Shown piece after piece: positions 1,485 to 20,016 of a stretch of 53,728 bases of DNA (positions are counted from its first letter, which is position 1; each line of letters opens with the position of its first letter). A model generated the notes under the pieces. That model worked only from the letters and a program-made list of their open reading frames with translations, had not been told where the DNA came from and did no database searches. The position numbers and the translations under genes are program-made. The stretch is from a virus (taxonomy: Duplodnaviria > Heunggongvirae > Uroviricota > Caudoviricetes): the IMG/VR virus record IMGVR_UViG_3300033233_000005; one strand, 5' to 3'.

Positions 1485-2573
1485 ATGGATCAGAATGTAG
1501 ACGTCGTCATCGATGGGCAGTATGGCAGTACTGGTAAGGGTTTAATCTGTCAGACCATAGCAGACAATTACAAGTTGGCGGTAACATGTAATGCTCCAAA
1601 TGCTGGGCACACTATCAGATGGGATGGGAGCCAAAATCCAGAGGGGCAATGGATGGGAAGGAAGACCTTTAAGGCTAGGCACGTCCCATCCTCTGTCCTC
1701 AACAAAGACTGTAAGTTAGCTATCGGTGCTGGTGCTTTGATTGGAATGGAGGTATTAGAGAAGGAACTTCAAGAATTACACAGTCTAGGTGTTGAGATTG
1801 AAGATAGACTGTATATTGACCCTCATGCTACTATGGTGCAGACTAGACATGTTAATGCAGAGCATGAAAAGAAAGAAGGTTCAGACATGTTTGATCGCAT
1901 TGGGTCCACTCGTGAAGGATGTGGACCAGCGTGGGCCGAGCGTGTACTGCGTCGTGGTGGGACTCAATTAGCTTATATGGAACCATATCTACAGAGGTTT
2001 ATTAGTAAAGAGCCAGTATCCCACATGATTAGATCTTACGATCGAGTTCTTCTAGAGGGTGCACAAGGCACCGGTCTGTCGAATATTCACGGGATCTACC
2101 CATATACCACATTTAGGGATACTACCGCATCTGGATTCGCATCTGCGGCTGGGGTTCCGCCACGTGCTATTAGAAATGTAATCATGGTGATCAGAACCTA
2201 TCCGATCAGAGTTGCTGGTATGAGCGGGCCAACTGGTGGTAAAGAGCTTGATTGGACATATTTCAGCAAGAGAGCCGGTAAAGAAGTGTCAGAGAGAACA
2301 ACTGTTACCAATCGGGTGCGTAGAATATTTGAGTTCTCTATGGACGATTTTAAACACGCGGTTATTCTGAATGGACCAAATATCATCGCTCTTAACTTCT
2401 TGAATTACCTTGATCCGAGCGATGAAGGGAAGACTGATTTTGACAAATTGGGATCTGTGTCCCGCAAGTTTATCGACGACATAGAGGCCGTGGCTCAAGC
2501 TCCGGTATTAATTATGAGCACGTCGGCTGATTCGGTGGTAGTCAGACCAGAATTACAGCCGATGCTGGCATGA
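1485..2573 (+). CDS. purZ: PurZ, N6-succino-2-amino-2'-deoxyadenylate synthase (PurA paralogue)
   Basis: PurA fold motifs PNAGHT, GST, LEGAQG, RTYPIRV, TTVT..RR; P-loop QYGSTGKG has Ser15 where PurA has Asp (GDEGKG); N304-F-L-N307 in place of the PurA TKLD; YPYTTFR. Confidence 0.88.
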   Translation: MDQNVDVVIDGQYGSTGKGLICQTIADNYKLAVTCNAPNAGHTIRWDGSQNPEGQWMGRKTFKARHVPSSVLNKDCKLAIGAGALIGMEVLEKELQELHSLGVEIEDRLYIDPHATMVQTRHVNAEHEKKEGSDMFDRIGSTREGCGPAWAERVLRRGGTQLAYMEPYLQRFISKEPVSHMIRSYDRVLLEGAQGTGLSNIHGIYPYTTFRDTTASGFASAAGVPPRAIRNVIMVIRTYPIRVAGMSGPTGGKELDWTYFSKRAGKEVSERTTVTNRVRRIFEFSMDDFKHAVILNGPNIIALNFLNYLDPSDEGKTDFDKLGSVSRKFIDDIEAVAQAPVLIMSTSADSVVVRPELQPMLA

Positions 2574-4119: not shown

Positions 4120-4547
4120 AAGACCCGGTGGAAGCCACTATACGGGCATTCGTTGATCTACAGAATACCGTACCCGATGGCTATAAATTCCCAGTGATGG
4201 TATGTGCTGTGTCCGCTGTAGCAGTGTTTATTATGTGCATGACATTTACTGATGTGTGGGTGCAGGAAAATCGTATAAACAAGTACTGGACGTCGATCTG
4301 TGATGAAGTGATTAATGAGATTGACGCTCTGATGCCAGTATATCATAAGGAAATGCTGGCATATGCACAGATGATGAAGAGGTCGATATTGAATAACAAA
4401 GGATTTACGACTGTGGTAGCCTCTATAGGAGAGGATGTCAAAATCAAAGCCGAGCGAGACTATTGCCTAGTAGATATCCATAATCAGGCCGCAGTGGATA
4501 TGCTGCAGGCTCAATTTGTGAAGTTGGTACAACAATGCAAGACTTGA
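4116..4547 (+). CDS. membrane-anchored hypothetical protein
   Basis: AGGAG SD, ATGA overlap with the previous gene; TM VMVCAVSAVAVFIMCMTF. Confidence 0.65.
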   Translation: MKDPVEATIRAFVDLQNTVPDGYKFPVMVCAVSAVAVFIMCMTFTDVWVQENRINKYWTSICDEVINEIDALMPVYHKEMLAYAQMMKRSILNNKGFTTVVASIGEDVKIKAERDYCLVDIHNQAAVDMLQAQFVKLVQQCKT

Positions 4548-4643
4548 TGGCCACATTATCCGCGTGTTTTAATAAATGTGGCCTCAAAAGCCAGTCTGCT
4601 TACAGAGTTGTGCATAGACTAAGGCTGAGGCGTAGGAGGACCC

Positions 4644-5438: not shown

Positions 5439-5470
5439 TACATAACTGCGACGTGACGAGTCACGTTAAT

Positions 5471-5630
5471 CAGATATAGGAGCTTTGGCTGGTACAGGGC
5501 AGTTTCCTAAACGTGTTCAGCCGAATCGGAAGGCTGGTGAGGCCGGGTCGGTCTATCAGGGTTGCTGGCAGAGAACCGATGCCAACCGGATATAAAACAG
5601 GGCATAGCTACACGCCCATCCTATATACTG
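5471..5630. ncRNA. unassigned structured RNA
   Basis: Closing helix ATATAGGA(5474-5481)/TCCTATAT(5619-5626); internal hairpins CAGCC/GGCTG, GGTT..GGCA/TGCCAACC and GGGC/GCCC; no ORF. Confidence 0.5.
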
Positions 5631-5657
5631 CCAGATAATCTGGCCAGTTAGTACTTA

Positions 5658-5666
5658 TGGTAAAAT
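5658..5666 (+). promoter_or_regulatory. extended -10 promoter for the tRNA
   Basis: TG-g-TAAAAT, 13 nt upstream of the tRNA 5' end; TATAAT also at 5671-5676. Confidence 0.45.
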
Positions 5667-5679
5667 AGGATATAATAGT

Positions 5680-5765
5680 GGAAGGCGTCCGAATGGACGA
5701 GGACACCGTTTTGAACACGGCTGACCCGAAAGGGTTTGGGGGTTCGATTCCCTCGCCTTCCGCCA
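5680..5765 (+). tRNA. tRNA-Ser (anticodon TGA)
   Basis: Acceptor GGAAGGC/GCCTTCC; anticodon loop TTTGAAC (TGA at 5712-5714); long variable arm ACCC-GAAA-GGGT; GGTTCGATTCC T-arm; discriminator G; encoded CCA. Confidence 0.95.
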
Positions 5766-5815
5766 TCTTTATCCTCCGCGTATAAAATACTGTAGACAAA
5801 TTCGATGGAGGAACA

Positions 5816-6832
5816 ATGGGATTAGCTGATGATCTAAAGAAACTTCATGATAAGTGCGATATAGTGGTGCCTGAATATGAGGCAGTCAGTTCTGGTATCC
5901 TCGCACTAGATTTTGCTACCACCGTTCCTGGGATTCCGCGTGGTACGATTATCGATTTCTATGGGAAAGAGGGCCTCGGTAAAACCACCACAGCCTTAAC
6001 TCTGGTCGCTGAGAGGATTAAGAATGGTGAGCGGTGTGCGTATATAGACGTCGAACAGCGGTTAAATGATCAATTAATTAACATGAACATCCCAAACAGA
6101 GATTTATTTGAAGTATTTCGTCCTAAGGATGGCGACGCAGCCCTATTTCTAGTCACTTCGCTGGTGCAGCATCCAGAGATCAAGATGATAGTATTGGACT
6201 CAGTTGCTGCATTGGCATTTAAAGAAGTCATGGAAGACATAGAAGGTGAGGGAGTGCACGTGGCTATCGTATCAAGAAAATTGTCTCCATTCTTCCAGCG
6301 AGTAATGACACCGATCAGAGAAAATGGTTGTATCCTAGTCTGCATCAATCAGTTGAGAACCAAACCGATGCAGATGACTAGAGGTATAACCGAGACTCCT
6401 ACCGGAGGGATGGCCATACGTTTCTATGCATCCTTCATGATGAATATGACTCCAGAATCATTCGTCCGTGATGGTGACAATTTGGCTGGCCACAGGGTCT
6501 ACATTACCATGGACAAGAATAACTTTGGTCCTAAGGGCCGTAAGGCGTATATGACGATCATGTATGGTCAAGGTGTAGATAAGGTTAGGGATGTTATTGA
6601 ATGCGGACAGCAGGTTGGAATGATAAAGAAATCTTCCAGCTGGTATTACTATAAGCAGGGGACACCGGAAGAGATAAAGGCTCTAGGTGAAAACCAATTA
6701 GTAGAAAAGCTGTCTCCTATCCTAGATAAAGTGCAGGCTGAAATACTGGCGGCATGGAAAAATGAGAATCCGGACGACGCACCCAAAGATGCTCCAGCAA
6801 TAGAGGAACCTGTAAAGCCAGAGGATAAGTAA
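5816..6832 (+). CDS. recA: RecA/UvsX-like recombinase
   Basis: SGILALD, GIPRG, Walker A GKEGLGKTT, YIDVE, IVLDSVA, INQLR, TPTGG.A..FYAS. Confidence 0.95.
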   Translation: MGLADDLKKLHDKCDIVVPEYEAVSSGILALDFATTVPGIPRGTIIDFYGKEGLGKTTTALTLVAERIKNGERCAYIDVEQRLNDQLINMNIPNRDLFEVFRPKDGDAALFLVTSLVQHPEIKMIVLDSVAALAFKEVMEDIEGEGVHVAIVSRKLSPFFQRVMTPIRENGCILVCINQLRTKPMQMTRGITETPTGGMAIRFYASFMMNMTPESFVRDGDNLAGHRVYITMDKNNFGPKGRKAYMTIMYGQGVDKVRDVIECGQQVGMIKKSSSWYYYKQGTPEEIKALGENQLVEKLSPILDKVQAEILAAWKNENPDDAPKDAPAIEEPVKPEDK

Positions 6833-7416
6833 TGCCTTCTAATTCTAGGGGCAAGAAATTCGAGTATTATATTAGAGATTACTTGAATGCCCTTGGCATG
6901 AAGGCCAGACGTAGAAAGTTGTCTGGTAGTGATTTAAAAGAACCCTATGATATCAGGGTTCGAGGATTTATAGACCACGCTGGTGTACCAGTGGCTGAAC
7001 TTAAACGCCTTTTCCCAATGGTGATTGAAGCCAAGCGTAGGATGTCTAAGAATCGCATCATTATGGAATCTGAATGGTTCGATAAGACAAAAGGTAAGAG
7101 CATAATAGTGTTCGCCATTGGTATGAAACCTGGTGTTAAAATCAAGATGTACGCCGCCAGCCGTATAAATCTCGGTGAAGAACACAAATCGCTGCGTATG
7201 ATAGAAATGCGTAGAACTAAGACTATTAATGCGATTGATCTGGTGAGTAACTTTTTAATCAAATCAGCAGATGGAAAGCATTACCTGATACAACCATTTG
7301 ATGAATTCTTACAGCAAAAAGGATATATAAGGATTAATGGCGGTGTGGTGGGTTCCCAGGACCCCGCAAGTAATGATGTTGGTCTTAAGGCAGCCTCCTT
7401 TCTTCCAACTAGCTAG
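6832..7416 (+). CDS. Holliday junction resolvase (Hjc-like PD-(D/E)xK nuclease)
   Basis: RGKKFEYYIRDYL...SG...PYDI...IEAK. Confidence 0.75.
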   Translation: MPSNSRGKKFEYYIRDYLNALGMKARRRKLSGSDLKEPYDIRVRGFIDHAGVPVAELKRLFPMVIEAKRRMSKNRIIMESEWFDKTKGKSIIVFAIGMKPGVKIKMYAASRINLGEEHKSLRMIEMRRTKTINAIDLVSNFLIKSADGKHYLIQPFDEFLQQKGYIRINGGVVGSQDPASNDVGLKAASFLPTS

Positions 7417-7433
7417 CCACATCGTCTGCAATC

Positions 7434-7661
7434 ATGGCTAAAATTACATCAAACAAATGCAAGCTGTTTACCAGAGGGGAGCTATGGGGATTGCGGGCCA
7501 GGTGTTATCATTTTGCCAAGGTTAAACATTTGAATCCGATATGGAAACGGATTTATGAAGATTTGGCCGATGCAATAGATCATTTAGATGCAGCAATGGG
7601 AAGGAGTACAGTTTCAGTAGTTAGCAACCCTCCAAGATATAAAAGTCCATATTCGCCATAA
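7434..7661 (+). CDS. hypothetical protein
   Basis: Fills the gap in the operon; no motif recognised. Confidence 0.55.
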   Translation: MAKITSNKCKLFTRGELWGLRARCYHFAKVKHLNPIWKRIYEDLADAIDHLDAAMGRSTVSVVSNPPRYKSPYSP

Positions 7662-7670
7662 GGAGTACCA

Positions 7671-7997
7671 ATGTCTGGAATATCGATCGAAAATCCATTT
7701 GATACGCTTGAAATAGACTTAATCAGGTACGATCCTGAGCATCTATATACAGCTCTATTTCGTATTACCAACGGTCTAATGGACAAATATAGTCAAATGG
7801 GCCTAGTCAAGACTAAGATACGCAAAATAGACAAGAAGCATCCTGACTATGTCAAGCTGGCATCTGAGAAAGACATGGTTGAGGTAGAAATATATGCATT
7901 GGAAATGAAGCATCGGACCGTCAATTCAGTTATATATGGGAAGAGCAGTGAAATGAGGGTTTTCAAAAATGTACCAACGGGACCGGTGAAGCATTAA
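7671..7997 (+). CDS. hypothetical helical protein, possibly UvsY-like recombination mediator
   Basis: AGGAG SD; coiled-coil with HPDYVKL...LE motif; context between recA and the helicase. Confidence 0.4.
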   Translation: MSGISIENPFDTLEIDLIRYDPEHLYTALFRITNGLMDKYSQMGLVKTKIRKIDKKHPDYVKLASEKDMVEVEIYALEMKHRTVNSVIYGKSSEMRVFKNVPTGPVKH

Positions 7998-8347
7998 TGC
8001 CTCGCAGCAGGTATTACAGTCGGGATGGAAAACCGCTTACGCTTATAGAGTGGGCCAAAAACCTGGAGAGACGGTCAGATAGCGGTAGAAGAGTGGCTGA
8101 GGCTACTGTTCCAGGCAATTTTTGGGTGTCTACTGTATGGCTGGGTGTAGATCACAATTACCGTCGTTCTGGCCCACCGCAAATATTTGAAACTATGGTA
8201 TTTAGATCTCATAAAGAACTCCATGAGTTCGATTGTGTACGATATACAACAGAAACGCAGGCCCTAAATGGGCATATAATTCTGGTTAAGAAATGGTCGC
8301 AATGGTGGAGAGACGAGGACAAATGGGAGCTACTTAAGAAATCATGA
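7997..8347 (+). CDS. conserved phage hypothetical protein
   Basis: VSTVWLGVDHNY...GPPQIFETMVF is a motif I recognise from phage hypotheticals. Confidence 0.65.
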   Translation: MPRSRYYSRDGKPLTLIEWAKNLERRSDSGRRVAEATVPGNFWVSTVWLGVDHNYRRSGPPQIFETMVFRSHKELHEFDCVRYTTETQALNGHIILVKKWSQWWRDEDKWELLKKS

Positions 8348-9687
8348 AAATATATATAGACTCTCCATATTCGATACTGTCATTGGAGGTAAATGATAAC
8401 GTATCTGCCCTGGATGGATTAAAGAGAGATCTTACCGTGACTATAAAGAAGTTTACGGGCATGGGCAAGCCACAGCTAGACAGAGTATGTCTGATTATGC
8501 CTAATCTGGCGTTTCGCACGGGCTTATTGACCCGGATACGCAGGTTAGCTCCACTGCATGGGTTAGCCATTAGTGAAGAGATAGACAGACGCGCCATGCC
8601 CAAGATCGATAAATCTCTATCCGGTAAGAAGGTCGATCTGCGTGATTATCAGGAAGAGGCTGTAACCAAGATGCTGCAATATGATATGGGAGTGTTGTGC
8701 GCTGCTACTGGTTCCGGCAAGACCCATATGGCGGCTAATATGATCGCTAAGCGGGCTGTGCCCACTCTATTCCTGGTTCATACAAAGGAACTGTTATACC
8801 AGACTCAGAAGCGATTTACAGAACTGCTCGGGATGAAGATTGGAGCCATAGGCGATGGTGTGTTTGAGCCTGAACCGATCACCGTGGCCACCATCCAAAC
8901 CCTGTACAGCCAAGGCGTGAATCCAGGCATCAAACCGCAGATGGTGATAGTAGATGAGACGCATCATCTACCAGCCGATATGTTCTTCACTGTTACCAGC
9001 CTGTATCCAGTTCGATATATGTATGGATTGAGCGCCACTCCATACCGCCTGGACGGAGCCGATCTCATGATTGAAGCTGGGGCAGGACCGATCATCGTTA
9101 GTATATCGGTTTCCGATCTGATCAAGCGGAAGATATTGTGTAAACCAGTGATCAGGTTCATACCGATAGGTACGGAGACTTCGTATTCCAAGGCTCCCAA
9201 GCATTATGTGGTCAGGAAGCATATAGTAAATAATGAACAACGCAACAATATTATCGCTGTGGAAACCAAGAAGTGTGCCGATAAAGGGCAATCCGTCCTT
9301 ATCGCAGTAAATTGGACCGAACATGCTAAACAGATTGAGATAAAATTAAAAGCGTTAGAGGTAGATTGTGAGATATTGGAAGGGAAATCTCCGACATATG
9401 TCAGGCAGCGCATTCTAAAAGAATTGCAGAGCAAGAAGTTGAAGGTGATAATCTCAACCATCATGAAAGAAGGCGTAGATGTCCCTTCTCTAGACGTAGT
9501 AATTAATGCGGCTGGTGGATCGGATAGTATGCAGTTGATCGGTAGGGCATTGCGCAAGTCCGATGGTAAGGAAACCGCCACCATTATAGATTTCGTAGAC
9601 AACCAACATATCACTTTACTACAGGCATCTAAAAACAGGATGAAGCGTTGTCAGGCTGAACCAGAATTCCTAGTAATCGCGGCCTAA
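8344..9687 (+). CDS. SF2 DExH helicase, UvsW-like
   Basis: LRDYQ, ATGSGKT, VDETHH, GLSATP, KEGVDVP, QLIGRALR. Confidence 0.93.
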   Translation: MKIYIDSPYSILSLEVNDNVSALDGLKRDLTVTIKKFTGMGKPQLDRVCLIMPNLAFRTGLLTRIRRLAPLHGLAISEEIDRRAMPKIDKSLSGKKVDLRDYQEEAVTKMLQYDMGVLCAATGSGKTHMAANMIAKRAVPTLFLVHTKELLYQTQKRFTELLGMKIGAIGDGVFEPEPITVATIQTLYSQGVNPGIKPQMVIVDETHHLPADMFFTVTSLYPVRYMYGLSATPYRLDGADLMIEAGAGPIIVSISVSDLIKRKILCKPVIRFIPIGTETSYSKAPKHYVVRKHIVNNEQRNNIIAVETKKCADKGQSVLIAVNWTEHAKQIEIKLKALEVDCEILEGKSPTYVRQRILKELQSKKLKVIISTIMKEGVDVPSLDVVINAAGGSDSMQLIGRALRKSDGKETATIIDFVDNQHITLLQASKNRMKRCQAEPEFLVIAA

Positions 9688-9697
9688 AGGAGAACAG

Positions 9698-10159
9698 GTG
9701 AAATTCGTCAGTTTATGGAGGGAGGAACCGGTACTTAAGGTAAAGCTTATATTTAGTAGCACTGTACCTACAACTAGTCCTCCTAAGACCAGGGTATTAG
9801 GCGACAAGGTATTTGGTGTCAAGTTGCCTGGTAACGATGTATGGTCTGTTATGAATATCAATGGGAACCGGTGGACTTTCATAAAACGGAGCAAAATGTG
9901 TGAAGGTCCGATAAATGGCAGGCACCGCTTTATCCGTAGCGATGGTGCCCTATTAAAGAGTGGAAGGCATGTTGGCGTAGATTGCATGTCTATACCCGAT
10001 GCCGTTAAAACTTTAAAGACTGTTGATCACCGTATCTTCTTTGATCCGTTCGCTATTACTAGGAACGGGGTGGGGGTGTCTTATCTTAAGCTCGAAGTAC
10101 CTAACGCCGCTAGCCAACTTGCACGTGACCGTAAGGATACAGGGGAGGCATTCATATGA
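9698..10159 (+). CDS. hypothetical protein
   Basis: AAGGAG SD with GTG start; overlaps the purB start. Confidence 0.65.
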   Translation: MKFVSLWREEPVLKVKLIFSSTVPTTSPPKTRVLGDKVFGVKLPGNDVWSVMNINGNRWTFIKRSKMCEGPINGRHRFIRSDGALLKSGRHVGVDCMSIPDAVKTLKTVDHRIFFDPFAITRNGVGVSYLKLEVPNAASQLARDRKDTGEAFI

Positions 10160-11301
10160 TTTCTGATCGATATGCAACTAAGATAGCCAGACATTGGTCA
10201 CCGGAAGAAAGGATTCAAACGTGGCTCAAGATTGAACTGCTTAATTTAAAAGCATATAGCCAAGAACACTATGAGAAAGCGTCTAAGGCGTTTAAGGATA
10301 TGTCCAACAAATATATAGCTGACCAGTCTAGATTGATAGAAGATAAGATCGGACATGAGGTTGAGGCATTCGTACAGTTCCTGAATCGGGTTTATCCAAC
10401 GGGTCTGTGGCATAAGGGGCTGGCATCATCTGATCTGGTTGAGTGCTCTAATGCGGTGGCCATGAATAAAGCTCTTCTGGAAATAACAGACGAGAAATAT
10501 CTACTTACCAATGGTCTTAGGTCATTGATGGTGACTTACAAAGATGCTCCAGCCCATGGATATACGCATGGTCAGAAGGCTGAGCCCATAACATGGGGAT
10601 TAAGATTCTTCGTATGGGCGGAGCAGCTAGAATACTTCCCTATGGTGTCAGTACGGGGCAAAATGACTGGTGCCGTGGGCACTGGGATCGTAACTGCTCC
10701 AGGTCTAGTCAGAGCGGTAGTTAATGAACTGCATATAGATATGTCAGCAGCGGCTACCCAAATAGTTCCAAGACATCAGCTATGTGGTACCCTAGATCAG
10801 ATTAGTGGATTGGCTATGGCTTTAGAGAAAATCTCAAACGATATGCGGATGCTATACACTCTGGATCAACTCCACATAGACAATATGCCTATTGGATCTA
10901 GTTCTATGCCTCATAAGGTTAATCCATACGAATTGGAACGCTTGATCGGTATGTGTAAAATGATCATGTCTATGGTAGATTGCATCAATAGGACCAATGC
11001 GGATGGTTGGCTAGAACGGGATCTAGTGCACTCTAGCGTAGAGCGTGAATTCCTGCCGGTCATATGCAATCATACATACTATGTGGTGAATAGATTGTCT
11101 GTGATACTAGGTAGATCACGATTCCGTCTGGCTACACCAGATGATTTGATATCACAATGGTCCTCAGTTAAATTGGCCGACATGCTGACACACGAAACAG
11201 ATAGAAAAGCGGCCAGAGAAGCGGCAAAGAGTGTGACCATAGAAGAATCGGTTGAGTATCTGTCTAGAATGAAAATCGCTGTGGATAAAATACTTGGATG
11301 A
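10156..11301 (+). CDS. purB: adenylosuccinate lyase
   Basis: Fumarase-superfamily signature GSSSMPHKVNP (10894-10926); HKGLASSD; GYTHGQKAEPITWG; KMTGAVGT; TQIVPR; LERDLVHSSVER. Confidence 0.92.
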   Translation: MISDRYATKIARHWSPEERIQTWLKIELLNLKAYSQEHYEKASKAFKDMSNKYIADQSRLIEDKIGHEVEAFVQFLNRVYPTGLWHKGLASSDLVECSNAVAMNKALLEITDEKYLLTNGLRSLMVTYKDAPAHGYTHGQKAEPITWGLRFFVWAEQLEYFPMVSVRGKMTGAVGTGIVTAPGLVRAVVNELHIDMSAAATQIVPRHQLCGTLDQISGLAMALEKISNDMRMLYTLDQLHIDNMPIGSSSMPHKVNPYELERLIGMCKMIMSMVDCINRTNADGWLERDLVHSSVEREFLPVICNHTYYVVNRLSVILGRSRFRLATPDDLISQWSSVKLADMLTHETDRKAAREAAKSVTIEESVEYLSRMKIAVDKILG

Positions 11302-11738
11302 ATGCAGAGCAGACTTTAATTTATAAACGCATATCCAAGCTGTTAACCAAGGATCAGTATCTAATAGGTACTTTACCCCTGGGTGATTTTGTCGTAGGGA
11401 GTTCTAGCCCAAATGAGCATGTGATGATAGCATTTAGAAATAGCAAACTAGGGCATACCATTCAGATAACATTAGATAGGCTAGATCTTGGAGTACGGGG
11501 TACATTTGAATTTGTATGTAATGACCCACTGATACTTGATCTAGTAACGGGATTTAAAGAATCAAAGATGATCACTAAGGATGCGGTGATGTTTATGATG
11601 GATTCGGCGCACCATATTACCAAATGTGGTATATACACCAGATACGGCATGTATAAATGGTTGGGTGAAGGCGAGAGTGCCAGTGAATTGTCAAACTCAG
11701 TTGGTCAACCATTTGGGGGTAAAATAGGATGGCAATAG
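11298..11738 (+). CDS. hypothetical protein
   Basis: ATGA overlap with purB. Confidence 0.65.
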   Translation: MNAEQTLIYKRISKLLTKDQYLIGTLPLGDFVVGSSSPNEHVMIAFRNSKLGHTIQITLDRLDLGVRGTFEFVCNDPLILDLVTGFKESKMITKDAVMFMMDSAHHITKCGIYTRYGMYKWLGEGESASELSNSVGQPFGGKIGWQ

Positions 11739-12484
11739 GTTCAGCAGGAGATCCGATGGGAATATTTCAAGCCAACCATAAATGGGGTGAATGGGGTACC
11801 CCTACTCCAGATCGCACTGATAGATTACCAAAGCAATTTAGAGACTCTGTCCTGTCTTATATCAAGGATATTATAGATAGTAAGATGTGTGAGGTTGTAG
11901 TATATCCAATGAAAGCCGTATCTGGCACTAAAATGCCGGTAATGTTAAGCATCAGTGTGATGTATAGCCATTTTGAGATTATGATAATGGATAATACCAC
12001 CTTTGTCATTCATTTCAATGTCACTGAAACTCCTAAATCGCCAATAATGATGACTTCTGGTGCCATTAGAGATCGATATGATGTGCAATGTGATGATCCC
12101 CTGGTATTGCAGGAAATTGTGTCAGCTGGTGATAATGCCAAAGAAATATTAAAGTGGTTGTCTGTCCTGGTTGATTCTCCATGTAAGGTTATTCAGGCTG
12201 TGCGCATTACTCCACAACAGGGCTTGGAAAAGCGGTGGTTGGAAGAAGCAGCAAAACAGGATACGTGGACTACGACCACTACTACGACTCCATACATACA
12301 TCACAAATACGTACCAAATTCAAACAGCATCACTTGGGGTAGTGAAGAGCATGCTAAGATAACTTTCGGCACAGGTGATTACGGCAAAGACATTTTGAAA
12401 AATCAAGAACCGGGGTGGATAACAAATCAATATAATAAATTGGTTAATGTGGTTAGTCGTCTAAAATCGACTACAATCAAATGA
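11729..12484 (+). CDS. hypothetical protein with a Thr run
   Basis: 251-aa ORF containing WTTTTTTTP. Confidence 0.65.
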   Translation: MAIGSAGDPMGIFQANHKWGEWGTPTPDRTDRLPKQFRDSVLSYIKDIIDSKMCEVVVYPMKAVSGTKMPVMLSISVMYSHFEIMIMDNTTFVIHFNVTETPKSPIMMTSGAIRDRYDVQCDDPLVLQEIVSAGDNAKEILKWLSVLVDSPCKVIQAVRITPQQGLEKRWLEEAAKQDTWTTTTTTTPYIHHKYVPNSNSITWGSEEHAKITFGTGDYGKDILKNQEPGWITNQYNKLVNVVSRLKSTTIK

Positions 12485-12771
12485 GGGTGTGGCCTTACGA
12501 TCTCAGAGTAGCTGGTTTAACATTCAAGGTAAAGAGTATGGATGAAGTTGACTCAGATGCTATTGAATGCAGACGTGAACCTACCAATGAATTCGATTCA
12601 AGAGCCGTGGCAGTATATTGTATATATACTGGCAAAAAAGAGCCAAAACATGTTGGATATATACCAAAAGAGATTGCTCGAAACATACCTGATGAAAAGC
12701 TGCCATGTAATGGCCAGGTAGTATGGAAAACCGATGAGATCGGTAGATTTGGAATGAAGATTGCAATATGA
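12481..12771 (+). CDS. stand-alone HIRAN domain protein
   Basis: CRREPTNEFDSRAVAV...HVGYIP. Confidence 0.85.
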   Translation: MRVWPYDLRVAGLTFKVKSMDEVDSDAIECRREPTNEFDSRAVAVYCIYTGKKEPKHVGYIPKEIARNIPDEKLPCNGQVVWKTDEIGRFGMKIAI

Positions 12772-13361
12772 CCAGAGTGGACGAGATCGACGCATGCCTA
12801 AGACATATGACACACGATGCCAGAGAGATATTGAATCTTATCGGTGACACCAGGCCAAAGATCTATTGGCAGATCAAGCTGATGGAATATTGCCATAACT
12901 TTAATGTTACGACCCTAATATCAAATCTAAAGAAATTAATTAAGGAGAATCCCACACAGAATTTAAAATTCTTTATTGAACACATACCCGATCATAGATT
13001 AGGGAAAATGCACAAGCAGGTTGCATTCACTGATCGTGGGATAATAAACATGTTTCGTATAGACAGGTTAGCTCTGGTATCAGATTATGCAGTTAGATTG
13101 GACGTACTGGCTGATCTCGTCAATAATATGGATATCACAGAGATCGATGAGGTGGTATCAGAATCCGGTAGAACTGGAATGGGATTGATCCTGGTAAAAT
13201 TACAGGAGCATGTGGGAGAGCGCGATCGAATGCGCAGAAACATCAGTCACATGGTCGCTGAACCAATTAAACCGGTTGTTCCAATGACTGACGAGGCTAG
13301 ATCGATACTATCGGCTACGATCGCTGAACTGGATACATTGATTAGGCCAGATAGCGACTAG
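12768..13361 (+). CDS. hypothetical protein upstream of primase-helicase
   Basis: ATGA overlap; helical. Confidence 0.65.
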   Translation: MTRVDEIDACLRHMTHDAREILNLIGDTRPKIYWQIKLMEYCHNFNVTTLISNLKKLIKENPTQNLKFFIEHIPDHRLGKMHKQVAFTDRGIINMFRIDRLALVSDYAVRLDVLADLVNNMDITEIDEVVSESGRTGMGLILVKLQEHVGERDRMRRNISHMVAEPIKPVVPMTDEARSILSATIAELDTLIRPDSD

Positions 13362-13375
13362 TATAAAGGAATGTT

Positions 13376-15769
13376 GTGGACCTAAAAGAATTAAAGATTA
13401 GAATACCGCTTGAGAAATTAGCCGACATGCTAGGCATCAAGGTCAAAGACTCCGGTAAGAACGCCGTAGCGTTGTGTCCGTTCCACAAGGACACTACCCC
13501 ATCTTTTACCATCGACAAGGCTAGGCAGATAGCCCGCTGCTTCTCTTCATCCTGTGCTGATCTAGGTGTAATTGACCATATCAAGCTAATAAAATTATAT
13601 GAGCATCTGGACGAAGACGATGCCGTAACTAGATTCTATGCCCTAGCAGGGGAAGAGCGTCCTGCGGACTCATCACAAGAGATATTGCACAAAATGTTAT
13701 CTCTGATCCATCAGAATATAACGATGGATGCGCCATTGAAATTCTTTCAGAATCGTGGCATTACCTTGGAAGCTCTGCAGAAACTAAAGGTCGGATATTC
13801 TCCATCAGCACAGTGGTTTAAGGATCAAATTAAGGATGTGCCACCGGACGAGTCGGCTAGATTGGAATTCTTTAGATCAGAAATGTTTGACAATGCCATT
13901 ATATATCCAGTGTATGATAGCTTGGGTAGAATGGCTGGATTTAGGAGCAGACCGTTCAAAGGCACAGCGAAGTATATAGCCAATTCCGGTGACTTTAAAT
14001 TCAAGGCCACTAGAGTCTATGGTATGCACTTAATTAAACATAATCGTCAGATCGTTCTGGTAGAAGGCCCCAATGATGTATTAGGATTGCTCTCTGCTGG
14101 AGTGTCGAATGTCGGTGGCCTGATGGGTTCTCATATGGAAGGCGTCGACAAGTATCTATGGAATCGTGGATTCAATGATGTAGTGTTTATAGCAGATGGT
14201 GATGAAGCGGGTGCTATGGCGATGATCAAAGCTCCACCACTTATTCGGGTGACCAAGATACCAATTGCTGGTGTGGACCCTGATGACTATGCACATCAAC
14301 AGGGCCTGTTGCCAGTTGTTAATTTGATCAATTCAGCTAAATTTCCCATTGAGATCAAATTGGAATCTAAGCTAAGCAAGATCCCAGCCGGTTTGACTGG
14401 TAAGGGGATGCTATTGAAATCCATTGCTCAGGATATATCTGATGGATTACCGTCGATATTGGTTGGTTTAGTTCAAGACTATGTAGCGACAGCCCTTGGA
14501 ATATCGCGAGAGGATGTAGCTAAGGTATTCGATCAAGTTGATTTGGATACCACGCGGCTGGAGAATAGAATGATAGCACACATGGCTAGTAATGGGGAAA
14601 CTTCTCCAGAGATTAGAACCAAAGTGATCCCACAGATGTTCTTTGATTCTAAGGCCCGTGCCCAATATAAACAGATACTGGATGGCTTGACCGTAACCGA
14701 TGTAACATCAACAATCACTGCATTCACGGAAGCCGACCTCGCGCAGTTTGTAGACCTAGCCACTAGGCGGCAGCTGCGTGTAGCTTTGAAGAAATCTTCC
14801 AACGACATAGCCAACATATCGATCCCCCTAGAAACCACATTAGAAAAGACCACTATTCAGATGTCGAATCTGACTATAGATGACGTTACGGTACTGTCAT
14901 CCGGTGAGGCATTGAGAGCAGAATTGGCCGACATTGAGGAACGGGCCAAGAACCCCGGACAATTGCTAGGCTTATCGTTTGGTCCTAGGTTCCCCAAAAT
15001 GGATCAAATTCTATTCGGACTTAGACCAAATAACATGTATATCGTAGCGGCTACGACCGGTATGGGTAAATCCAATCTAGCCTTGGAATGGGCCATACAT
15101 ATGTCGCACAATGATAACGTACCCGTGCTGTGGGTATCACTAGAAATGTCTGCTAGGGAGATGGCTGCAAGAAGACTTGCCAAGATAACTGGTGTAAGCA
15201 TGACTAGTATCCTCAGAGCAGAGTTAACTGTTGAACAGACTAAATTACTAAAGGATCAAGCAATCAATCATGCCTTAACGCCATTTTATGAGGCATATTG
15301 CGGCGGAATCACCATCCATCAGATCGTATCGCTGATCAGAAAGTACAAGATTACCAAGGATATCAAGGCAGTATATATAGACTACATCCAGCTGGTTCAA
15401 GGTGGACCTGAGGATAGGGGCAGTTACGAGAGAATAGGTTATATATCTGGAATGCTCAAGAACCAAGTTACTATGAGTAAATCGATAGGCATCCCGGTTG
15501 TAGCCATATCTCAGTTAACTAGACAGGCCGCTAAGGTAGAAGTGCCAACGGCAGAAAATGTAGCGGAATCGTATAAAATAAGTCAGGATGCAGATGCCTT
15601 CCTTGCTATTAAGCAGAGAACTGAATTTGAGATTGAGGAAGACAAGCTCCAGGGTAGGAATTATGGCAATATGTTACTAAATATAGACAAGAATAGAGAA
15701 GGTCCATCCAAGCAGATAGTGGGACTGATATTTAACAAAGACAATCTATCAATCAAAGAGGTGGTTTAA
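13376..15769 (+). CDS. DNA primase-helicase fusion (CHC2 Zn finger, TOPRIM, DnaB-like)
   Basis: CPFHKDTTPSF...CFSSSC; LVEGPND, FIADGDEAG; AATTGMGKS, IDYIQL, ISQLTR, DKNREG. Confidence 0.93.
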   Translation: MDLKELKIRIPLEKLADMLGIKVKDSGKNAVALCPFHKDTTPSFTIDKARQIARCFSSSCADLGVIDHIKLIKLYEHLDEDDAVTRFYALAGEERPADSSQEILHKMLSLIHQNITMDAPLKFFQNRGITLEALQKLKVGYSPSAQWFKDQIKDVPPDESARLEFFRSEMFDNAIIYPVYDSLGRMAGFRSRPFKGTAKYIANSGDFKFKATRVYGMHLIKHNRQIVLVEGPNDVLGLLSAGVSNVGGLMGSHMEGVDKYLWNRGFNDVVFIADGDEAGAMAMIKAPPLIRVTKIPIAGVDPDDYAHQQGLLPVVNLINSAKFPIEIKLESKLSKIPAGLTGKGMLLKSIAQDISDGLPSILVGLVQDYVATALGISREDVAKVFDQVDLDTTRLENRMIAHMASNGETSPEIRTKVIPQMFFDSKARAQYKQILDGLTVTDVTSTITAFTEADLAQFVDLATRRQLRVALKKSSNDIANISIPLETTLEKTTIQMSNLTIDDVTVLSSGEALRAELADIEERAKNPGQLLGLSFGPRFPKMDQILFGLRPNNMYIVAATTGMGKSNLALEWAIHMSHNDNVPVLWVSLEMSAREMAARRLAKITGVSMTSILRAELTVEQTKLLKDQAINHALTPFYEAYCGGITIHQIVSLIRKYKITKDIKAVYIDYIQLVQGGPEDRGSYERIGYISGMLKNQVTMSKSIGIPVVAISQLTRQAAKVEVPTAENVAESYKISQDADAFLAIKQRTEFEIEEDKLQGRNYGNMLLNIDKNREGPSKQIVGLIFNKDNLSIKEVV

Positions 15770-16581
15770 TGGCTAATCCTATAGGACCGATCAATTCTGG
15801 AACCACAGCCTCTAGTCCATACATTGCTATCTCACCATATACGGTATCAACCGGGTCTCCGTGGTCTACCTCTACTACAGTAACATCAACTGGGTCTATA
15901 GCTGAATGGCCTACAATAAGAGTATTCGATAATATCGTAGTTAGCTTTAAAAGTTTCTTGAATGACATCACAACAGTCAGGGATGAGAATGGCATGCTTA
16001 TCTGTGATGAATTAAGAACCATATTTATATATAAAGAGCCATCCATTATAGATATGCCAAAATTGAGGCAGCCTGGATACAAAATGGTTGATATCGGTAA
16101 AAACTCTCCTTATGCTACATCGTTTACAGTAAAAGATTTCGTTAAGATAATGAATACTGTGATGATCTATTGTAAGGATCTGGCATTCGGAATGCCACAC
16201 CGCAAGTATGATTCAGTCGGATTCGATCTGCATTGTTTAAAAGATGCTGTGGTGGAACCGGGTGAATTCATGGATGTAGAAACTGGGGTACATTGTGCAT
16301 TCCCATCACATATTTGGGGTTTGCTGGTATCGCGTAGTAGCATATTTAAGAAACGCCTGATAGTGAATACAGGCATCATAGACCCTGGATTTCAGGGTGA
16401 ATTATTCGCGTGTGTCTATAATGCAGGTAAGGAACAGTTTAAAATAGAACGTGGAGATAGATTAGCGCAGTTAATACCCATGCAGGACGTCCCTATGATA
16501 GGAGTCCAACAAGCGTATGGGTTGGATGAATTTCCCGCCACTAACCGTGGCACCAATGGGTTCGGATCAACGGGTAAATAA
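15769..16581 (+). CDS. dut: trimeric dUTPase-fold protein with about 130-aa N-terminal extension
   Basis: Five motifs: VGFDL, SRSS, GIIDPGFQGE, GDRLAQL, RGTNGFGSTG. Confidence 0.85.
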   Translation: MANPIGPINSGTTASSPYIAISPYTVSTGSPWSTSTTVTSTGSIAEWPTIRVFDNIVVSFKSFLNDITTVRDENGMLICDELRTIFIYKEPSIIDMPKLRQPGYKMVDIGKNSPYATSFTVKDFVKIMNTVMIYCKDLAFGMPHRKYDSVGFDLHCLKDAVVEPGEFMDVETGVHCAFPSHIWGLLVSRSSIFKKRLIVNTGIIDPGFQGELFACVYNAGKEQFKIERGDRLAQLIPMQDVPMIGVQQAYGLDEFPATNRGTNGFGSTGK

Positions 16582-16822: not shown

Positions 16823-17032
16823 GTGAAATATTTCGTAGTTACACCTGCGTACGAGTCCGGAGGTTCGGAATATGAGCCTCCGGACTACGGCAGTGACGTA
16901 GCAGAGATTGAAGCTATCAATAGAAGGCTGGCTAAAGCAGTAGGACTTAAAGCACTAAGAAAGATGAATAGTAGATGGGTAGACGATTTAGGAAACAATC
17001 CATTTAAGGGATTAAAGGTGTATAGAGCATGA
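16823..17032 (+). CDS. hypothetical protein
   Basis: GTG start directly after the previous stop; overlaps the dnaE start. Confidence 0.6.
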   Translation: MKYFVVTPAYESGGSEYEPPDYGSDVAEIEAINRRLAKAVGLKALRKMNSRWVDDLGNNPFKGLKVYRA

Positions 17033-20016
17033 ACGATACTTATGTATCCCTTCACAATCACACGTTCTATTCAACCCTAGATGGTTTAAATAAGCCGATA
17101 GAGCTTGCCCAGACTGCCAAAGAAATGGGTTCTCCAGCCATAGCTATCACTGACCATGGAACTCTAGCTGGCATACCGGAATTCTTTGAAGCATGCAGGA
17201 AGACCGGAGTGAAGCCAATATTGGGTAATGAAATGTATTCAGTCCCTGATATAACAATTAGAGAAATCCTGATCACCCCGACAAAGAAACAATCGCGATC
17301 TGGCTACCATCTAACACTGTTAGCTAAAAATGCTACTGGATTTAAGAATTTGGTGGCTTTGAATAACATAGCATTCATGCGTGGGTTTTATTATTATCCT
17401 AAAATAGATTGGAAAGCACTGCTTGAGCACAAAGAGGGTTTAATAGTATTGTCAGCTTGTGCTTCGTCCGAATTGAGTCAATATTCAATCATGGACAGGG
17501 CACACAACGTTGCACCCAAATTCAAGGAAGCATTCGGTGACGATTATTATATGGAATTGATGGACAATTATATGGTCAAAGAATTACAACGTGGATTAAA
17601 TGAGAAGTTCTTAGAAGCAGCCAAGAAATTCAATATCAAATGTGTGGCTACCAATGATGCTCATTACCTAAAACAGGATATGTATGATATACATGATGTC
17701 GCCACCTGTATACAACAAAAGAAAACTATATCTACACCAGGTAGATTAAAATACGACGGCTTCTATCATCTAAAATCGATGACTGAAATGATCAAGGTAT
17801 TCCCACGTGAAGCCATCAATAATACTTTGGAAGTGGCAGAAAAGATAGAAGCATTCGATATCTATGACAAGACTATGCGATTGCCCCTGATGATGGGTGA
17901 AGATCCCGATGTATTATTGCGGATGTTGGCTACGGATGGATTAAAAAAGCGCAATCTTACGGGAGCGGTCTATATAGATCGCTTGAATAGAGAATTGGAA
18001 GTCATAGCCAAACTAGGATTGTCGGCATATTTTTTGGTAACCAAAGACATCATCGATAGTTCAATCAGATCCATCGGCTGTACAATGGCTTGGGGTAGAG
18101 GCTCATCTGCCTCTTCTTTAGTGTGCTATGCGCTAAGGATAACCGATGTCGACCCGATCAAGAGTGGCTTGCTGTTTGAACGGTTTGTAAATCCTCACCG
18201 CCCTGACTGGCCCGATATCGACATAGACGTGCCGCAGCAACACCGGCAGGAAGTCATAGCCAAGATATTTGAAAAATACGGGATTGATAAGGTAGCCCAC
18301 ATATCTACCATGCATAACTTGCGTCCTAAGATGCTGGTTAAAGACCTATGCAAGACGCTTGAATTAGACGCGGTTGATGCGGCCAAGCTAGCGGGGGCCG
18401 TTCCATTCGAAGCCACTGGCTGGGATGATTTGAAGGATAATAAGAAATTCACGGACATCGTAGATACTATGCCCGATAGTAATAAATTGATGGGATATTT
18501 GCAGTATCTGCTTGGTCTACCCAAGCATTTGGGTACCCATGCATCAGGGATCATCATTTCTAGTGACCCGATTACCGATCGTCTACCGATCAGGATGGAT
18601 GATACCAAAATGGTGTCTCAGTACACCATGCATCACGTCCATAAATTCGGGTTTATGAAATTCGACATCCTGGGATTAAAGACCTTAGATATCATATTCG
18701 CTGCGGCTAAGGATGCCGGTATAGACCTCAAGAATATACCGATGGAAGACAAGAAGACTTTCGATCTGATAGGTGAAGGTCGAGTGATAGGCGTGTTCCA
18801 GCTTGATGGATCACATTCCTATATCAAGCTATGCCGAGATATGAAACCAATCAAGTTTGATGAAATATGCCATATCGTTGCTCTACACCGTCCTGGAATA
18901 ATGGATTCTGGACAATTAACAGTGTATCTGGACAGACGCGCCGGTAGAATACCGGTCAAATATATACATCCTGACCTGGAACCGATATTAAAAGAAAATT
19001 ATGGCATCTGTATCTTCCAGGAAGACATGATGAAAATGGCACAAGTGTTTGCCAACTTCTCTTTAGCTGAGGCCGAGGATTTGCGCAAGGCCATCGCCAA
19101 GAAAGATCCTGAATTGATGAAACTGCAGAGTGCCAAGTTCACTGAACGAGCTACTGCATTGGGTAGAGACAAGGATAGTATCGCGTCCGCTCTAAGCATG
19201 CTAGAAGCGTCTGCTAGGTATTCATGGAATAAGGCGCATGGCTATGGCTATGGGCATATCACATATGCCTGTGCCTACCTGTCGGCTAATTATCCATTGC
19301 AGTTTTTCACCCATCTAATCAATATGGCATCAGAGGAAGACAAATCTACGTATCTGACTGAGGCGATGGCGCGTGGACTTAAGATCCTACCCCCTGATGT
19401 TAATAGATCCAATAAGAATGCTACTATCGATGGTGATGCTATCCGGTTGGGTCTGACTTCGATCAAGGGAATAGGCGACGCAATAGCAGACAAGATTATC
19501 AAGAACAGACCCTATGATAAGATCGACAAATTAAAAGCTACCGTCAATAAAACGGCTATCACCCTATTGTACTCAGTCAAGGCTGTAAGCACAGTTGGTG
19601 ATGCAGAAACTTGGGACCCCGGATTAAAGGCGGATGAATCTACCCTACTCGGTATATCACTCAGCAATAATCAAGCTGATTACGATAAACTGATCAAGGT
19701 AGCTGGGGCCGATCCAGTTCATACGATTGCTGGGATAGGGACTGCTATAGTTAAAATATTAACAGTTAAAGAAGTGACAGACAAATTAAAGAGAAAGATG
19801 GCTTTCTTAACTGGTGTAGATGTGCATGGTCCCAAACATGACATGGTTATGTTTGCTACGGAATATCAAGAGATGAAACCAAAACCCGGTGAGACATATA
19901 TTATGACCTTACGTAAGACACCAATAGGTAGCATGCAAATTAGGGGTTTGATATCGACCAAGGAATACATAGAACGGTATAATAAAAATCCTGCAAATGC
20001 CGAGAAGATCACATAG
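17029..20016 (+). CDS. dnaE: DNA polymerase III alpha subunit (family C)
   Basis: PHP domain HNHT..STLDG, TDHG, GNE, YHL, TNDAHY; GRGSSASS; catalytic PDIDID; KFDILGL; HhH LGLTSIKGIG; C-terminal OB fold. Confidence 0.97.
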   Translation: MNDTYVSLHNHTFYSTLDGLNKPIELAQTAKEMGSPAIAITDHGTLAGIPEFFEACRKTGVKPILGNEMYSVPDITIREILITPTKKQSRSGYHLTLLAKNATGFKNLVALNNIAFMRGFYYYPKIDWKALLEHKEGLIVLSACASSELSQYSIMDRAHNVAPKFKEAFGDDYYMELMDNYMVKELQRGLNEKFLEAAKKFNIKCVATNDAHYLKQDMYDIHDVATCIQQKKTISTPGRLKYDGFYHLKSMTEMIKVFPREAINNTLEVAEKIEAFDIYDKTMRLPLMMGEDPDVLLRMLATDGLKKRNLTGAVYIDRLNRELEVIAKLGLSAYFLVTKDIIDSSIRSIGCTMAWGRGSSASSLVCYALRITDVDPIKSGLLFERFVNPHRPDWPDIDIDVPQQHRQEVIAKIFEKYGIDKVAHISTMHNLRPKMLVKDLCKTLELDAVDAAKLAGAVPFEATGWDDLKDNKKFTDIVDTMPDSNKLMGYLQYLLGLPKHLGTHASGIIISSDPITDRLPIRMDDTKMVSQYTMHHVHKFGFMKFDILGLKTLDIIFAAAKDAGIDLKNIPMEDKKTFDLIGEGRVIGVFQLDGSHSYIKLCRDMKPIKFDEICHIVALHRPGIMDSGQLTVYLDRRAGRIPVKYIHPDLEPILKENYGICIFQEDMMKMAQVFANFSLAEAEDLRKAIAKKDPELMKLQSAKFTERATALGRDKDSIASALSMLEASARYSWNKAHGYGYGHITYACAYLSANYPLQFFTHLINMASEEDKSTYLTEAMARGLKILPPDVNRSNKNATIDGDAIRLGLTSIKGIGDAIADKIIKNRPYDKIDKLKATVNKTAITLLYSVKAVSTVGDAETWDPGLKADESTLLGISLSNNQADYDKLIKVAGADPVHTIAGIGTAIVKILTVKEVTDKLKRKMAFLTGVDVHGPKHDMVMFATEYQEMKPKPGETYIMTLRKTPIGSMQIRGLISTKEYIERYNKNPANAEKIT

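What the first reader, a model, noticed from the sequence alone, without database searches (positions are those of the whole stretch)
10156..11301. Phage-encoded PurB supplies the second step of the Z pathway
Seen: an intact adenylosuccinate lyase (GSSSMPHKVNP, THG catalytic His, SSD, ERD..HSSVER) in the same transcriptional block as purZ, with divergent residues near the substrate site (GYTH instead of GRTH, HKGLASSD). Established: characterised Z phages rely on host PurB to release fumarate and give dZMP. Inference: a dedicated lyase tuned to the 2-amino-deoxy substrate, or a host that lacks usable PurB. I know of no characterised phage with both genes.
Basis: partly seen in the sequence, partly recalled or inferred. 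Interest (0 to 1): 0.88.

Follow-up and report, generated by a model that had tools for sequence, protein, structure and literature searches.

The report
Phage adenylosuccinate lyase alongside PurZ
A large uncultured sediment phage that carries PurZ, the enzyme that starts making the DNA base 2-aminoadenine (Z), also carries its own intact but divergent adenylosuccinate lyase that could do the next step; the same gene pairing is already annotated in two groups of cultured phages, so it is a new example, not a new kind.

Summary
Window 10156-11301 (+) encodes an intact 381-aa adenylosuccinate lyase (PurB) homologue. Its model is confident, and its 50 best structural matches are all adenylosuccinate lyases. 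Every catalytic and nucleotide-binding residue I could map is kept. The gene at 1485-2573 is a PurZ-type synthetase (Ser for the PurA catalytic Asp, TTVT tip, NFLN donor motif as in phiVC8).

- "GYTH" is a common PurB variant (Tyr in 38 of 232 homologues).
- The only lineage-specific change (Thr to Ala in HKGLASSD) lies on the succinyl side, not near the 2-amino or 2'-deoxy positions, and two of nine clade members keep Thr. Tuning to the Z intermediate is therefore not shown.
- The pairing is not unprecedented. Gordonia phage Ghobes (a biochemically studied Z phage) and Streptomyces Hiyaa-like phages carry annotated PurA-like plus PurB-like genes, 11 of 218 PurZ-bearing GenBank phage records.
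- This scan had already noted the pairing on other DNA.

What is new is a small, very divergent, shortened PurB lineage. It is known only from uncultured DnaE-type phage contigs and sits inside their replication module. The papers I could read still assign this step to host PurB, and no phage PurB has been assayed. Most likely function: succino-2-amino-deoxyadenylate to dZMP plus fumarate.

The parts
10156..11301 (+). PurB-like adenylosuccinate lyase, 381 aa (P0001), with a shortened C-terminal domain
10142..10148 (+). GGGGAGG Shine-Dalgarno-like sequence 7 nt before the ATG at 10156. The ATG overlaps the TGA of the upstream ORF (ATGA).
   Evidence: read directly from the sequence
9698..10159 (+). 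153-aa ORF of unknown function, overlapping the start of purB by 4 bases
   Evidence: no family or fold match
11298..11738 (+). 146-aa ORF of unknown function, whose start overlaps the purB stop (ATGA)
1485..2573 (+). PurZ-type succino-amino-deoxyadenylate synthetase homologue, 362 aa (P0085): Ser15 in GSTGKG, TTVT tip, N304-F-L-N307
15769..16581 (+). Dut-fold protein, 270 aa, with a Ser/Thr-rich N-terminal extension. Candidate dATP/dGTP pyrophosphatase (DutZ-like); activity not tested.
   Evidence: comparison with PMC12884076
5816..6832 (+). RecA-like recombinase (replication/recombination module context)
8344..9687 (+). ResIII/DEAD helicase. It lies upstream of purB here and in the related contigs that extend that far (L003, L005).
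12481..12771 (+). HIRAN-domain protein, conserved downstream of purB in relatives
13376..15769 (+). DnaG-DnaB primase-helicase fusion
17029..20016 (+). DnaE-type (Pol III alpha) polymerase, the only polymerase seen in the window

Best explanation
The gene encodes a working, divergent adenylosuccinate lyase carried by a large uncultured phage with a DnaE-type replicase. It is expressed as part of the replication and nucleotide-metabolism module. [quoted passage not shown] This would make the dGMP-to-dZMP conversion independent of how much PurB the host has. Shown: gene integrity, fold, conserved catalytic and nucleotide-binding residues, conservation of the gene in a small phage lineage, and presence of a PurZ-type gene in the same genome. 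Inferred: the substrate, and that the phage DNA contains Z at all. Nothing indicates special tuning; ordinary PurB enzymes are reported to accept this substrate.
For: - Intact ORF with a confident ASL fold, and only ASL structures among the top 50 matches.
- Residues equivalent to E. coli H171 (H138) and S295 (S248) are all present. So are S. aureus R4/Y5 (R5/Y6), H68 (H67), S94 (S91), Q212 (Q202), K268 (K254), S306 (S293) and R310 (R297). These residues are invariant or nearly so in 232 homologues; their roles are taken from PMC2917274.
- The nucleotide-phosphate binding residues argue for a succinyl-nucleotide substrate rather than another fumarate-lyase substrate.
- The gene is kept in 9 related proteins at 43-50% identity with 74 invariant columns. 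Their contigs show it in the same position: before HIRAN, primase-helicase, a Dut-like gene and, where the contig reaches, DnaE, with the helicase upstream in the two contigs that extend that far.
- P0085 carries the PurZ hallmarks: Ser for Asp13, TTVT, and NFLN as in phiVC8 NFCN (PMC12884076 section 24, PMC8342488).
- No other purine-biosynthesis gene was found among the ORFs scanned in the window.
- Two other PurZ-bearing phage groups also carry a PurB.
- Host PurB is reported to perform this step for phiVC8 in vitro (PMC8342488), so the chemistry lies within the family's range.
Against: - No biochemical data exist for this or any phage PurB.
- The protein scores below the curated purB equivalog cut-off (192 vs 326 bits).
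- It lacks about 50 C-terminal residues of typical PurB, and no Pfam ADSL_C match was found.
- It has a Thr-to-Ala change at a residue proposed to bind the succinyl group.
- purZ and purB are 7.6 kb apart and are not demonstrably co-transcribed.
- Linkage of purZ and purB on one contig could be seen only in this window. Related contigs were too short; the best I found is both gene types in one sample, ERR12074541.
- A cultured phage with the same module order (Bacillus phage vB_BpsS-140) has the PurZ-like gene but no PurB, so PurB is dispensable for that module.
- Z in this phage's DNA is unproven, and no DatZ, MazZ or DpoZ was found in the window.
Confidence: 0.6

Rival explanations
1. It is a general auxiliary metabolic gene. 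The lyase boosts ordinary purine supply during infection (adenylosuccinate to AMP, SAICAR to AICAR) and has no special link to PurZ.
For: All residues used by housekeeping PurB are retained. PurB-like genes also occur on phage-labelled contigs with no PurZ within 12 kb, for example MT835488.1. PurB enzymes naturally act on two substrates (PMC2917274).
Against: No other pur genes were found in 54 kb, so a lone PurB would add little to de novo flux. The only partner enzyme present has Ser where PurA has its catalytic Asp, which is 99% conserved in PurA (PMC12884076). The best annotated phage PurBs in GenBank sit in PurZ-bearing genomes: 11 of the 34 phage-labelled hits. Several other hits look like cellular DNA, for example the MaAM05 region with metG, glgX and ftsH.
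Confidence: 0.2
2. It is a specialised dSMP lyase. The enzyme would have evolved a preference for the 2-amino-2'-deoxy intermediate, or would exist because the host lacks PurB.
For: The clade sits on a long stem (1.08 substitutions per site, 100% support) apart from all cellular PurBs, with at most 33% identity to any of 185,579 species genomes. It has a clade-specific T-to-A change, a deletion of about 5 residues before the GSS loop, and a shortened domain 3.
Against: None of these changes maps to residues reported to touch ribose O2', adenine N1 or N6. The ribose-side variants G66 and E68 are found in 36 and 46 of 232 homologues. The T-to-A change is missing in 2 of 9 clade members. Ghobes and Galactica PurBs keep GLTSSD and RTHG. 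The host is unknown.
Confidence: 0.12
3. The lyase works on a different succinylated nucleotide, made by a PurZ-like enzyme whose real substrate is not dGMP, giving a purine other than Z.
For: P0085 and its closest relatives form their own clade, outside both characterised PurZ and PurZ0 (99% support). P0085 scores below the PurZ model cut-off (218 vs 300 bits). The usual Z-cluster helpers were not found in the window.
Against: The three motifs that contact dGMP, aspartate and ATP in solved PurZ structures are conserved (PMC8342488).
Confidence: 0.06

Closest known systems
Gordonia phage Ghobes gp36 'adenylosuccinate lyase' (AOE44413.1; also in phages Frizzle, Sapo and Archimedes)
   Same: A short PurB (377 aa) encoded by a phage that also encodes a Ser-type PurA homologue (gp50). 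It lies beside a DEAD-family helicase and near RecA-like and nuclease genes. It has never been assayed.
   Different: About 26% identity over 264 aligned residues. Ghobes keeps GLTSSD and RTHG. It partners with the PurZ0 type (GSEAKG, Asp in the donor motif) and DNA polymerase I, in a 45-kb actinophage. It falls elsewhere in the ML tree, although a single origin is not rejected (AU p = 0.155).
Streptomyces phage Galactica gp75 and Hiyaa gp76 'PurB-like adenylosuccinate lyase'
   Same: A phage PurB about 5 kb downstream of a PurA-like synthetase and a Dut-fusion gene.
   Different: Full length (461 aa) with canonical motifs. 29% identity.
Cellular short-type PurB (T. maritima 1C3C/1C3U, S. aureus 2X75, B. 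anthracis 2PFM)
   Same: Same fold (TM 0.75-0.80 normalised to the query) and same catalytic and binding residues.
   Different: 23-26% identity in the structure-based alignments (about 30% by sequence alignment). About 50 residues shorter at the C terminus. Ala for the Thr93 equivalent. A shorter segment before the catalytic Ser loop. Below the TIGR00928 cut-off.
Host PurB step of the phiVC8 and S-2L Z pathway
   Same: The same proposed reaction, dSMP to dZMP plus fumarate, following PurZ (PMC8342488, PMC12884076, PMC12783734).
   Different: [quoted passage not shown] Here it is phage-encoded.

Membership tests
Adenylosuccinate lyase PurB (EC 4.3.2.2; NCBIfam TIGR00928) | Scores at or above the curated equivalog cut-off of the purB model | tested here: not met
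   192.4 bits against a cut-off of 326.2. It is still by far the best family; the next, pcaB, scores 62 bits.
Adenylosuccinate lyase PurB (EC 4.3.2.2; NCBIfam TIGR00928) | Fumarate-lyase fold most similar to solved ASL structures | tested here: met
   pLDDT 95.3. All top 50 Foldseek PDB hits are ASL, and 1c3c_A gives TMq 0.79.
Adenylosuccinate lyase PurB (EC 4.3.2.2; NCBIfam TIGR00928) | Catalytic acid His (E. coli H171, S. aureus H141) and catalytic Ser of the GSSxMPxKxN loop (E. coli S295) | tested here: met
   H138 and S248 align to these residues. Both columns are invariant in 232 homologues. Roles are from PMC2917274.
Adenylosuccinate lyase PurB (EC 4.3.2.2; NCBIfam TIGR00928) | Nucleotide 5'-phosphate and base contacts (S. 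aureus R4, Y5, S306, R310, Q212) | tested here: met
   R5, Y6, S293, R297 and Q202 are present.
Adenylosuccinate lyase PurB (EC 4.3.2.2; NCBIfam TIGR00928) | Succinyl-binding Thr of the TS(S/x)D motif (S. aureus Thr93) | tested here: not met
   Ala90. Thr occupies this column in 223 of 232 homologues, and Ala occurs only in 7 members of this clade.
Adenylosuccinate lyase PurB (EC 4.3.2.2; NCBIfam TIGR00928) | C-terminal ADSL_C domain (PF10397) | tested here: not met
   Only PF00206 is detected. The alignment shows about 50 residues missing, and the model has three helices after residue 325.
Adenylosuccinate lyase PurB (EC 4.3.2.2; NCBIfam TIGR00928) | Lyase activity on adenylosuccinate, SAICAR or dSMP | not testable with these tools
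   Needs an enzyme assay.
PurZ (NCBIfam NF038379), for the partner gene 1485-2573 | Ser replaces the PurA catalytic Asp13 in the P-loop | tested here: met
   GSTGKG, identical to phiVC8 and S-2L. Criterion from PMC12884076.
PurZ (NCBIfam NF038379), for the partner gene 1485-2573 | ATP-type donor motif (N..N/Q) instead of the PurA and PurZ0 Asp | tested here: met
   N304-F-L-N307, against phiVC8 NFCN, S-2L NFAQ and E. coli TKLD. Contacts described in PMC8342488.
PurZ (NCBIfam NF038379), for the partner gene 1485-2573 | Score above the model's curated cut-off | tested here: not met
   218.3 bits against 300. The archaeal-type PurA model scores 248.6 against 368.
Z-cluster of described Z phages | DatZ (HD), MazZ/DUF550 or DmtZ helper genes and a DpoZ polymerase | tested here: not met
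   None was found among the ORFs scanned in this 54-kb window; only a Dut-fold gene and a DnaE are present. The other 110 kb of the contig could not be read.

The most novel reading that the evidence does not exclude
This shortened lyase lineage is a dedicated dSMP lyase that has drifted away from the housekeeping substrates. It would let a family of DnaE-replicating large phages make Z-DNA in hosts that have little or no PurB. On this reading PurB capture has happened repeatedly in PurZ phages, which would mark the lyase step as a real bottleneck of Z-genome synthesis.
Probability: 0.12. Interest if true: 0.65.

Novelty: new member of a known kind. Interest (0 to 1): 0.42.

Why it matters
Every paper on Z-genome synthesis that I could read (PMC8342488, PMC12884076, PMC12783734, bioRxiv 2025.10.22.683976) draws the second step as a host function. 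A phage-borne lyase occurs in at least three PurZ-bearing phage groups: Ghobes-like phages, Hiyaa-like phages and this sediment lineage. That suggests the step can limit Z synthesis, and it gives a simple two-enzyme phage cassette (PurZ plus PurB) to test for dGMP-to-dZMP conversion. For this window the practical value is modest. It adds a divergent member, and together with the PurZ-type gene, the Dut-fold gene and DnaE it marks a large-phage lineage worth testing for Z-DNA.

Tried and rejected
- IMG/VR scans with the protein and with the clade alignment found no relative.
- The metagenome scan gave only six short contigs, none reaching purZ.
- The genome scan found only ordinary cellular PurBs at 33% identity or less, from many phyla, so it gave no host hint.
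- No whole genome is held for the window, and records behind the related loci could not be searched.
- The flanking ORFs 9698-10159, 11298-11738 and 11729-12484 gave no Pfam, NCBIfam, PHROG or Atlas lead.
- The idea that G66 or E68 are convergent adaptations of the ribose site was rejected, because both are common in the family.
- Independent acquisition of PurB by the three phage groups is what the ML tree shows, but the AU test does not reject a single clade (p = 0.155), so I do not claim it.
- The promoter and terminator scans were no better than shuffles for promoters, and no convincing + strand terminator was found between purZ and purB.
- Microcystis phage MaAM05 'purB' was rejected as a phage example because its neighbours are cellular housekeeping genes.
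- The fecal contig MT835488.1 has a PurB but no PurZ within 12 kb.
- The Science 2021 papers and the Nature Microbiology 2023 PurZ0 paper are not held, so I cannot exclude that one of them mentions phage PurB.
- No RNA holder was listed for the stretch. The only run holding it is a sediment metagenome that may be the source.

Full report
**What is there**

All ORFs of 137 aa or more in the window lie on the + strand. The ORF at 10156-11301 gives a 381-aa protein, P0001, with no internal stop.
- It matches Pfam Lyase_1 at 2.8e-29.
- Among NCBIfam models it matches purB (TIGR00928) best, at 192 bits. The next family, pcaB, scores 62 bits. The purB score is below the curated equivalog cut-off of 326 bits.
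- The closest solved proteins are short-type adenylosuccinate lyases: T. maritima 8.5e-35, S. aureus 6.4e-31.
- An AlphaFold2 model built on 77 homologues is confident (pLDDT 95.3, pTM 0.93).
- Its 50 best Foldseek matches in the PDB are all adenylosuccinate lyases (TM 0.79 to 1C3C).

**Active site**

I aligned P0001 with 231 homologues and with E. coli PurB taken from NC_000913.3. I read residue roles from the S. aureus PurB structure paper (PMC2917274). The following are conserved:

| P0001 residue | Equivalent | Role |
|---|---|---|
| H138 | E. coli H171, S. aureus H141 | catalytic acid |
| S248 | E. coli S295 | catalytic Ser loop |
| H67, S91, Q202, K254 | S. aureus H68, S94, Q212, K268 | substrate and succinyl contacts |
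| R5, Y6, S293, R297 | S. aureus R4, Y5, S306, R310 | AMP-phosphate ligands |

The phosphate ligands argue for a succinyl-nucleotide substrate rather than another substrate of the fumarate-lyase superfamily.

- The Tyr of GYTH is ordinary. Tyr occupies that column in 38 of 232 homologues, including proteins their sources name adenylosuccinate lyase.
- The Ala of HKGLASSD is unusual. Thr is present in 223 of 232, and Ala occurs only in 7 of the 9 members of this protein's own clade.
[quoted passage not shown] Two clade members keep Thr.
- I also checked the residues next to the ribose (G66, E68). They vary in the family at large, in 36 and 46 of 232 homologues.
- There is therefore no sequence evidence for tuning to a 2-amino-2'-deoxy substrate.

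Real peculiarities of the clade are:
- about 50 missing C-terminal residues, with no ADSL_C domain detected;
- a segment about 5 residues shorter before the GSS loop.

**The lineage**

- A word-indexed search of 5.8 billion proteins found eight relatives at 43-50% identity. All come from metagenomes and are 346-398 aa long. The next hit is at 35%.
- A full HMMER profile search of 1.84 billion cluster representatives gave only four representatives above 500 bits. The next scored 221 bits.
- No member is in IMG/VR.
- None is in 185,579 prokaryote species genomes, where the best matches are ordinary PurBs at 33% identity or less from many phyla.
- The contigs that carry relatives share the window's gene order: PurB, HIRAN protein, a roughly 200-aa ORF, DnaG-DnaB primase-helicase, Dut-fold protein and, where the contig reaches it, DnaE. 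The helicase lies upstream in the two contigs that extend that far.
- In the window the gene is translationally coupled on both sides (ATGA overlaps) and has a GGGGAGG ribosome-binding site.
- The only public run holding the stretch is a sediment metagenome.

**The partner gene**

ORF 1485-2573 (P0085, 362 aa) is a PurA-family protein.
- Its P-loop is GSTGKG, with Ser where PurA has the catalytic Asp13.
- PMC12884076 reports Asp13 in 99% of PurA and Ser in all 147 phage PurZ and PurZ0 sequences.
- It also has the TTVT loop tip that PMC8342488 describes as strictly conserved in PurZ.
- It has N304-F-L-N307 where phiVC8 has NFCN and S-2L has NFAQ (the adenine contacts). E. coli PurA has TKLD at this site, and the PurZ0 proteins of Ghobes, Galactica and Arthrobacter phages keep the Asp.
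- In a tree it forms its own well-supported clade with seven metagenomic proteins, outside both reference PurZ and PurZ0.
- It scores below the PurZ model cut-off (218 vs 300 bits).

I accept it as PurZ-type by motif; its activity is untested. It lies 7.6 kb upstream of purB, with about 14 ORFs and three non-coding gaps between them. "Same transcriptional block" is therefore not established.

**Is the pairing new?**

No.
- tblastn against 50,697 phage records found PurB-like genes in 34 records and PurZ-like genes in 218.
- All five Streptomyces (Hiyaavirus) records and all six Gordonia (Ghobes-like) records appear in both lists.
- I confirmed the annotations directly. Galactica has gp65 'PurA-like adenylosuccinate synthetase' and gp75 'PurB-like adenylosuccinate lyase'. 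Ghobes has gp50 and gp36.
- Ghobes is a biochemically studied Z phage; its DutZ and DmtZ were characterised in PMC12884076.
- Earlier notes of this scan had also recorded PurZ plus PurB pairs on other DNA (e1-3448559, e1-1830967, e1-1939373, e1-1939355). I treat these as leads only.

On the other hand, every paper I could read assigns the step to host enzymes.
- PMC12884076, PMC12783734 and bioRxiv 2025.10.22.683976 say host or bacterial PurB.
- The key 2021 Science papers and the 2023 PurZ0 paper are not held.

So the pair is known from annotation, is uncommon (about 5% of PurZ-bearing records) and has not been characterised.

**Relationship among phage PurBs**

In a maximum-likelihood tree the window clade is monophyletic (100% SH-aLRT) on a long stem. 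Ghobes gp36 and Galactica gp75 fall elsewhere among short-type PurBs. That would suggest separate captures. However, the AU test does not reject a tree uniting all three (p = 0.155), and Ghobes is a long branch. I leave this open.

**Context for and against a Z pathway**

- The window has a Dut-fold gene with an N-terminal extension, in the position that is conserved in relatives.
- PMC12884076 shows that Dut-like enzymes of PurZ0 phages hydrolyse dATP and dGTP, and that all 98 PurZ0 genomes have one.
- No HD (DatZ), MazG/DUF550 or NDT-like gene and no family A polymerase was found in the 54 kb.
- The remaining roughly 110 kb of the contig could not be read.
- Bacillus phage vB_BpsS-140 shares the order PurZ-like, RecA, helicase, primase, (adenylate kinase), dut, but has no PurB. 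PurB is therefore an optional addition to this module.

**Verdict**

The functional reading, that phage PurB supplies the second step after PurZ, is the best explanation (about 0.6), but it is inferred. The claims of substrate tuning and of unprecedented co-occurrence are not supported. This is a new, divergent member of an already annotated but uncharacterised kind.

Noticed in passing
homologues of window 1485-2573 (P0094-P0205): Hundreds of roughly 335-aa PurA-like proteins about 40% identical to the window's PurZ-type enzyme carry the Ser P-loop (GGQFGSEAKGK), TTVT and LQFLNYL motifs. Some lie on large cellular-looking contigs (up to 1.34 Mb), and one is named from Anabaena sp. UHCC 0253. 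PurZ-like enzymes may therefore be common in bacterial genomes or their prophages.
   Followed up: partly
L015 (Bacillus phage vB_BpsS-140, MH884512.1 37026-48248): This cultured phage has a PurZ-like gene (GSEGKG P-loop, NFANY donor motif) in the same module order as the window: RecA, helicase, primase, then an adenylate kinase and dut. It has no PurB. It is a testable cultured relative for Z-DNA.
   Followed up: partly
L003, L004, L005 versus window 17029-20016 and 8344-9687: The DnaE genes of related contigs carry intein domains (1124-1368 aa), and one helicase carries a LAGLIDADG/Hom_end insertion (802 aa). The window's DnaE (995 aa) and helicase (447 aa) are intein-free.
   Followed up: no
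window 15769-16581: The Dut-fold protein has an N-terminal extension of about 140 residues that starts with a Ser/Thr/Pro-rich low-complexity stretch. Relatives have 232-309-aa versions at the same position. The extension is not obviously the NDT-like DmtZ domain seen in Arthrobacter phage fusions.
   Followed up: partly
L022 (Microcystis phage MaAM05, MW495066.1 188745-201698): The 'purB' of this 274-kb phage record sits among metG, mtaB, glgX and ftsH. The region looks like cellular chromosome DNA rather than phage DNA.
   Followed up: no
window 1-17000: ARAGORN finds no tRNA gene here. Another first-reader note on this window mentions a tRNA-Ser next to the 5451-5646 gap.
   Followed up: partly
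window 26368-53726: Of the 20 larger ORFs I scanned in the second half of the window, only two gave a Pfam match: a ChaB domain in 48992-50458, and a weak SH3_12 hit (below its gathering score) in 34178-35566. The presumed structural module is very divergent.
   Followed up: no
PMC12884076 section 24 versus window motif table: [quoted passage not shown] The sequences point the other way: PurZ0 proteins keep the PurA-like Asp of the guanine-specifying motif, while phiVC8 and S-2L PurZ have Asn/Gln. bioRxiv 2025.10.22.683976 also describes PurZ as the ATP/dATP user.
   Followed up: partly
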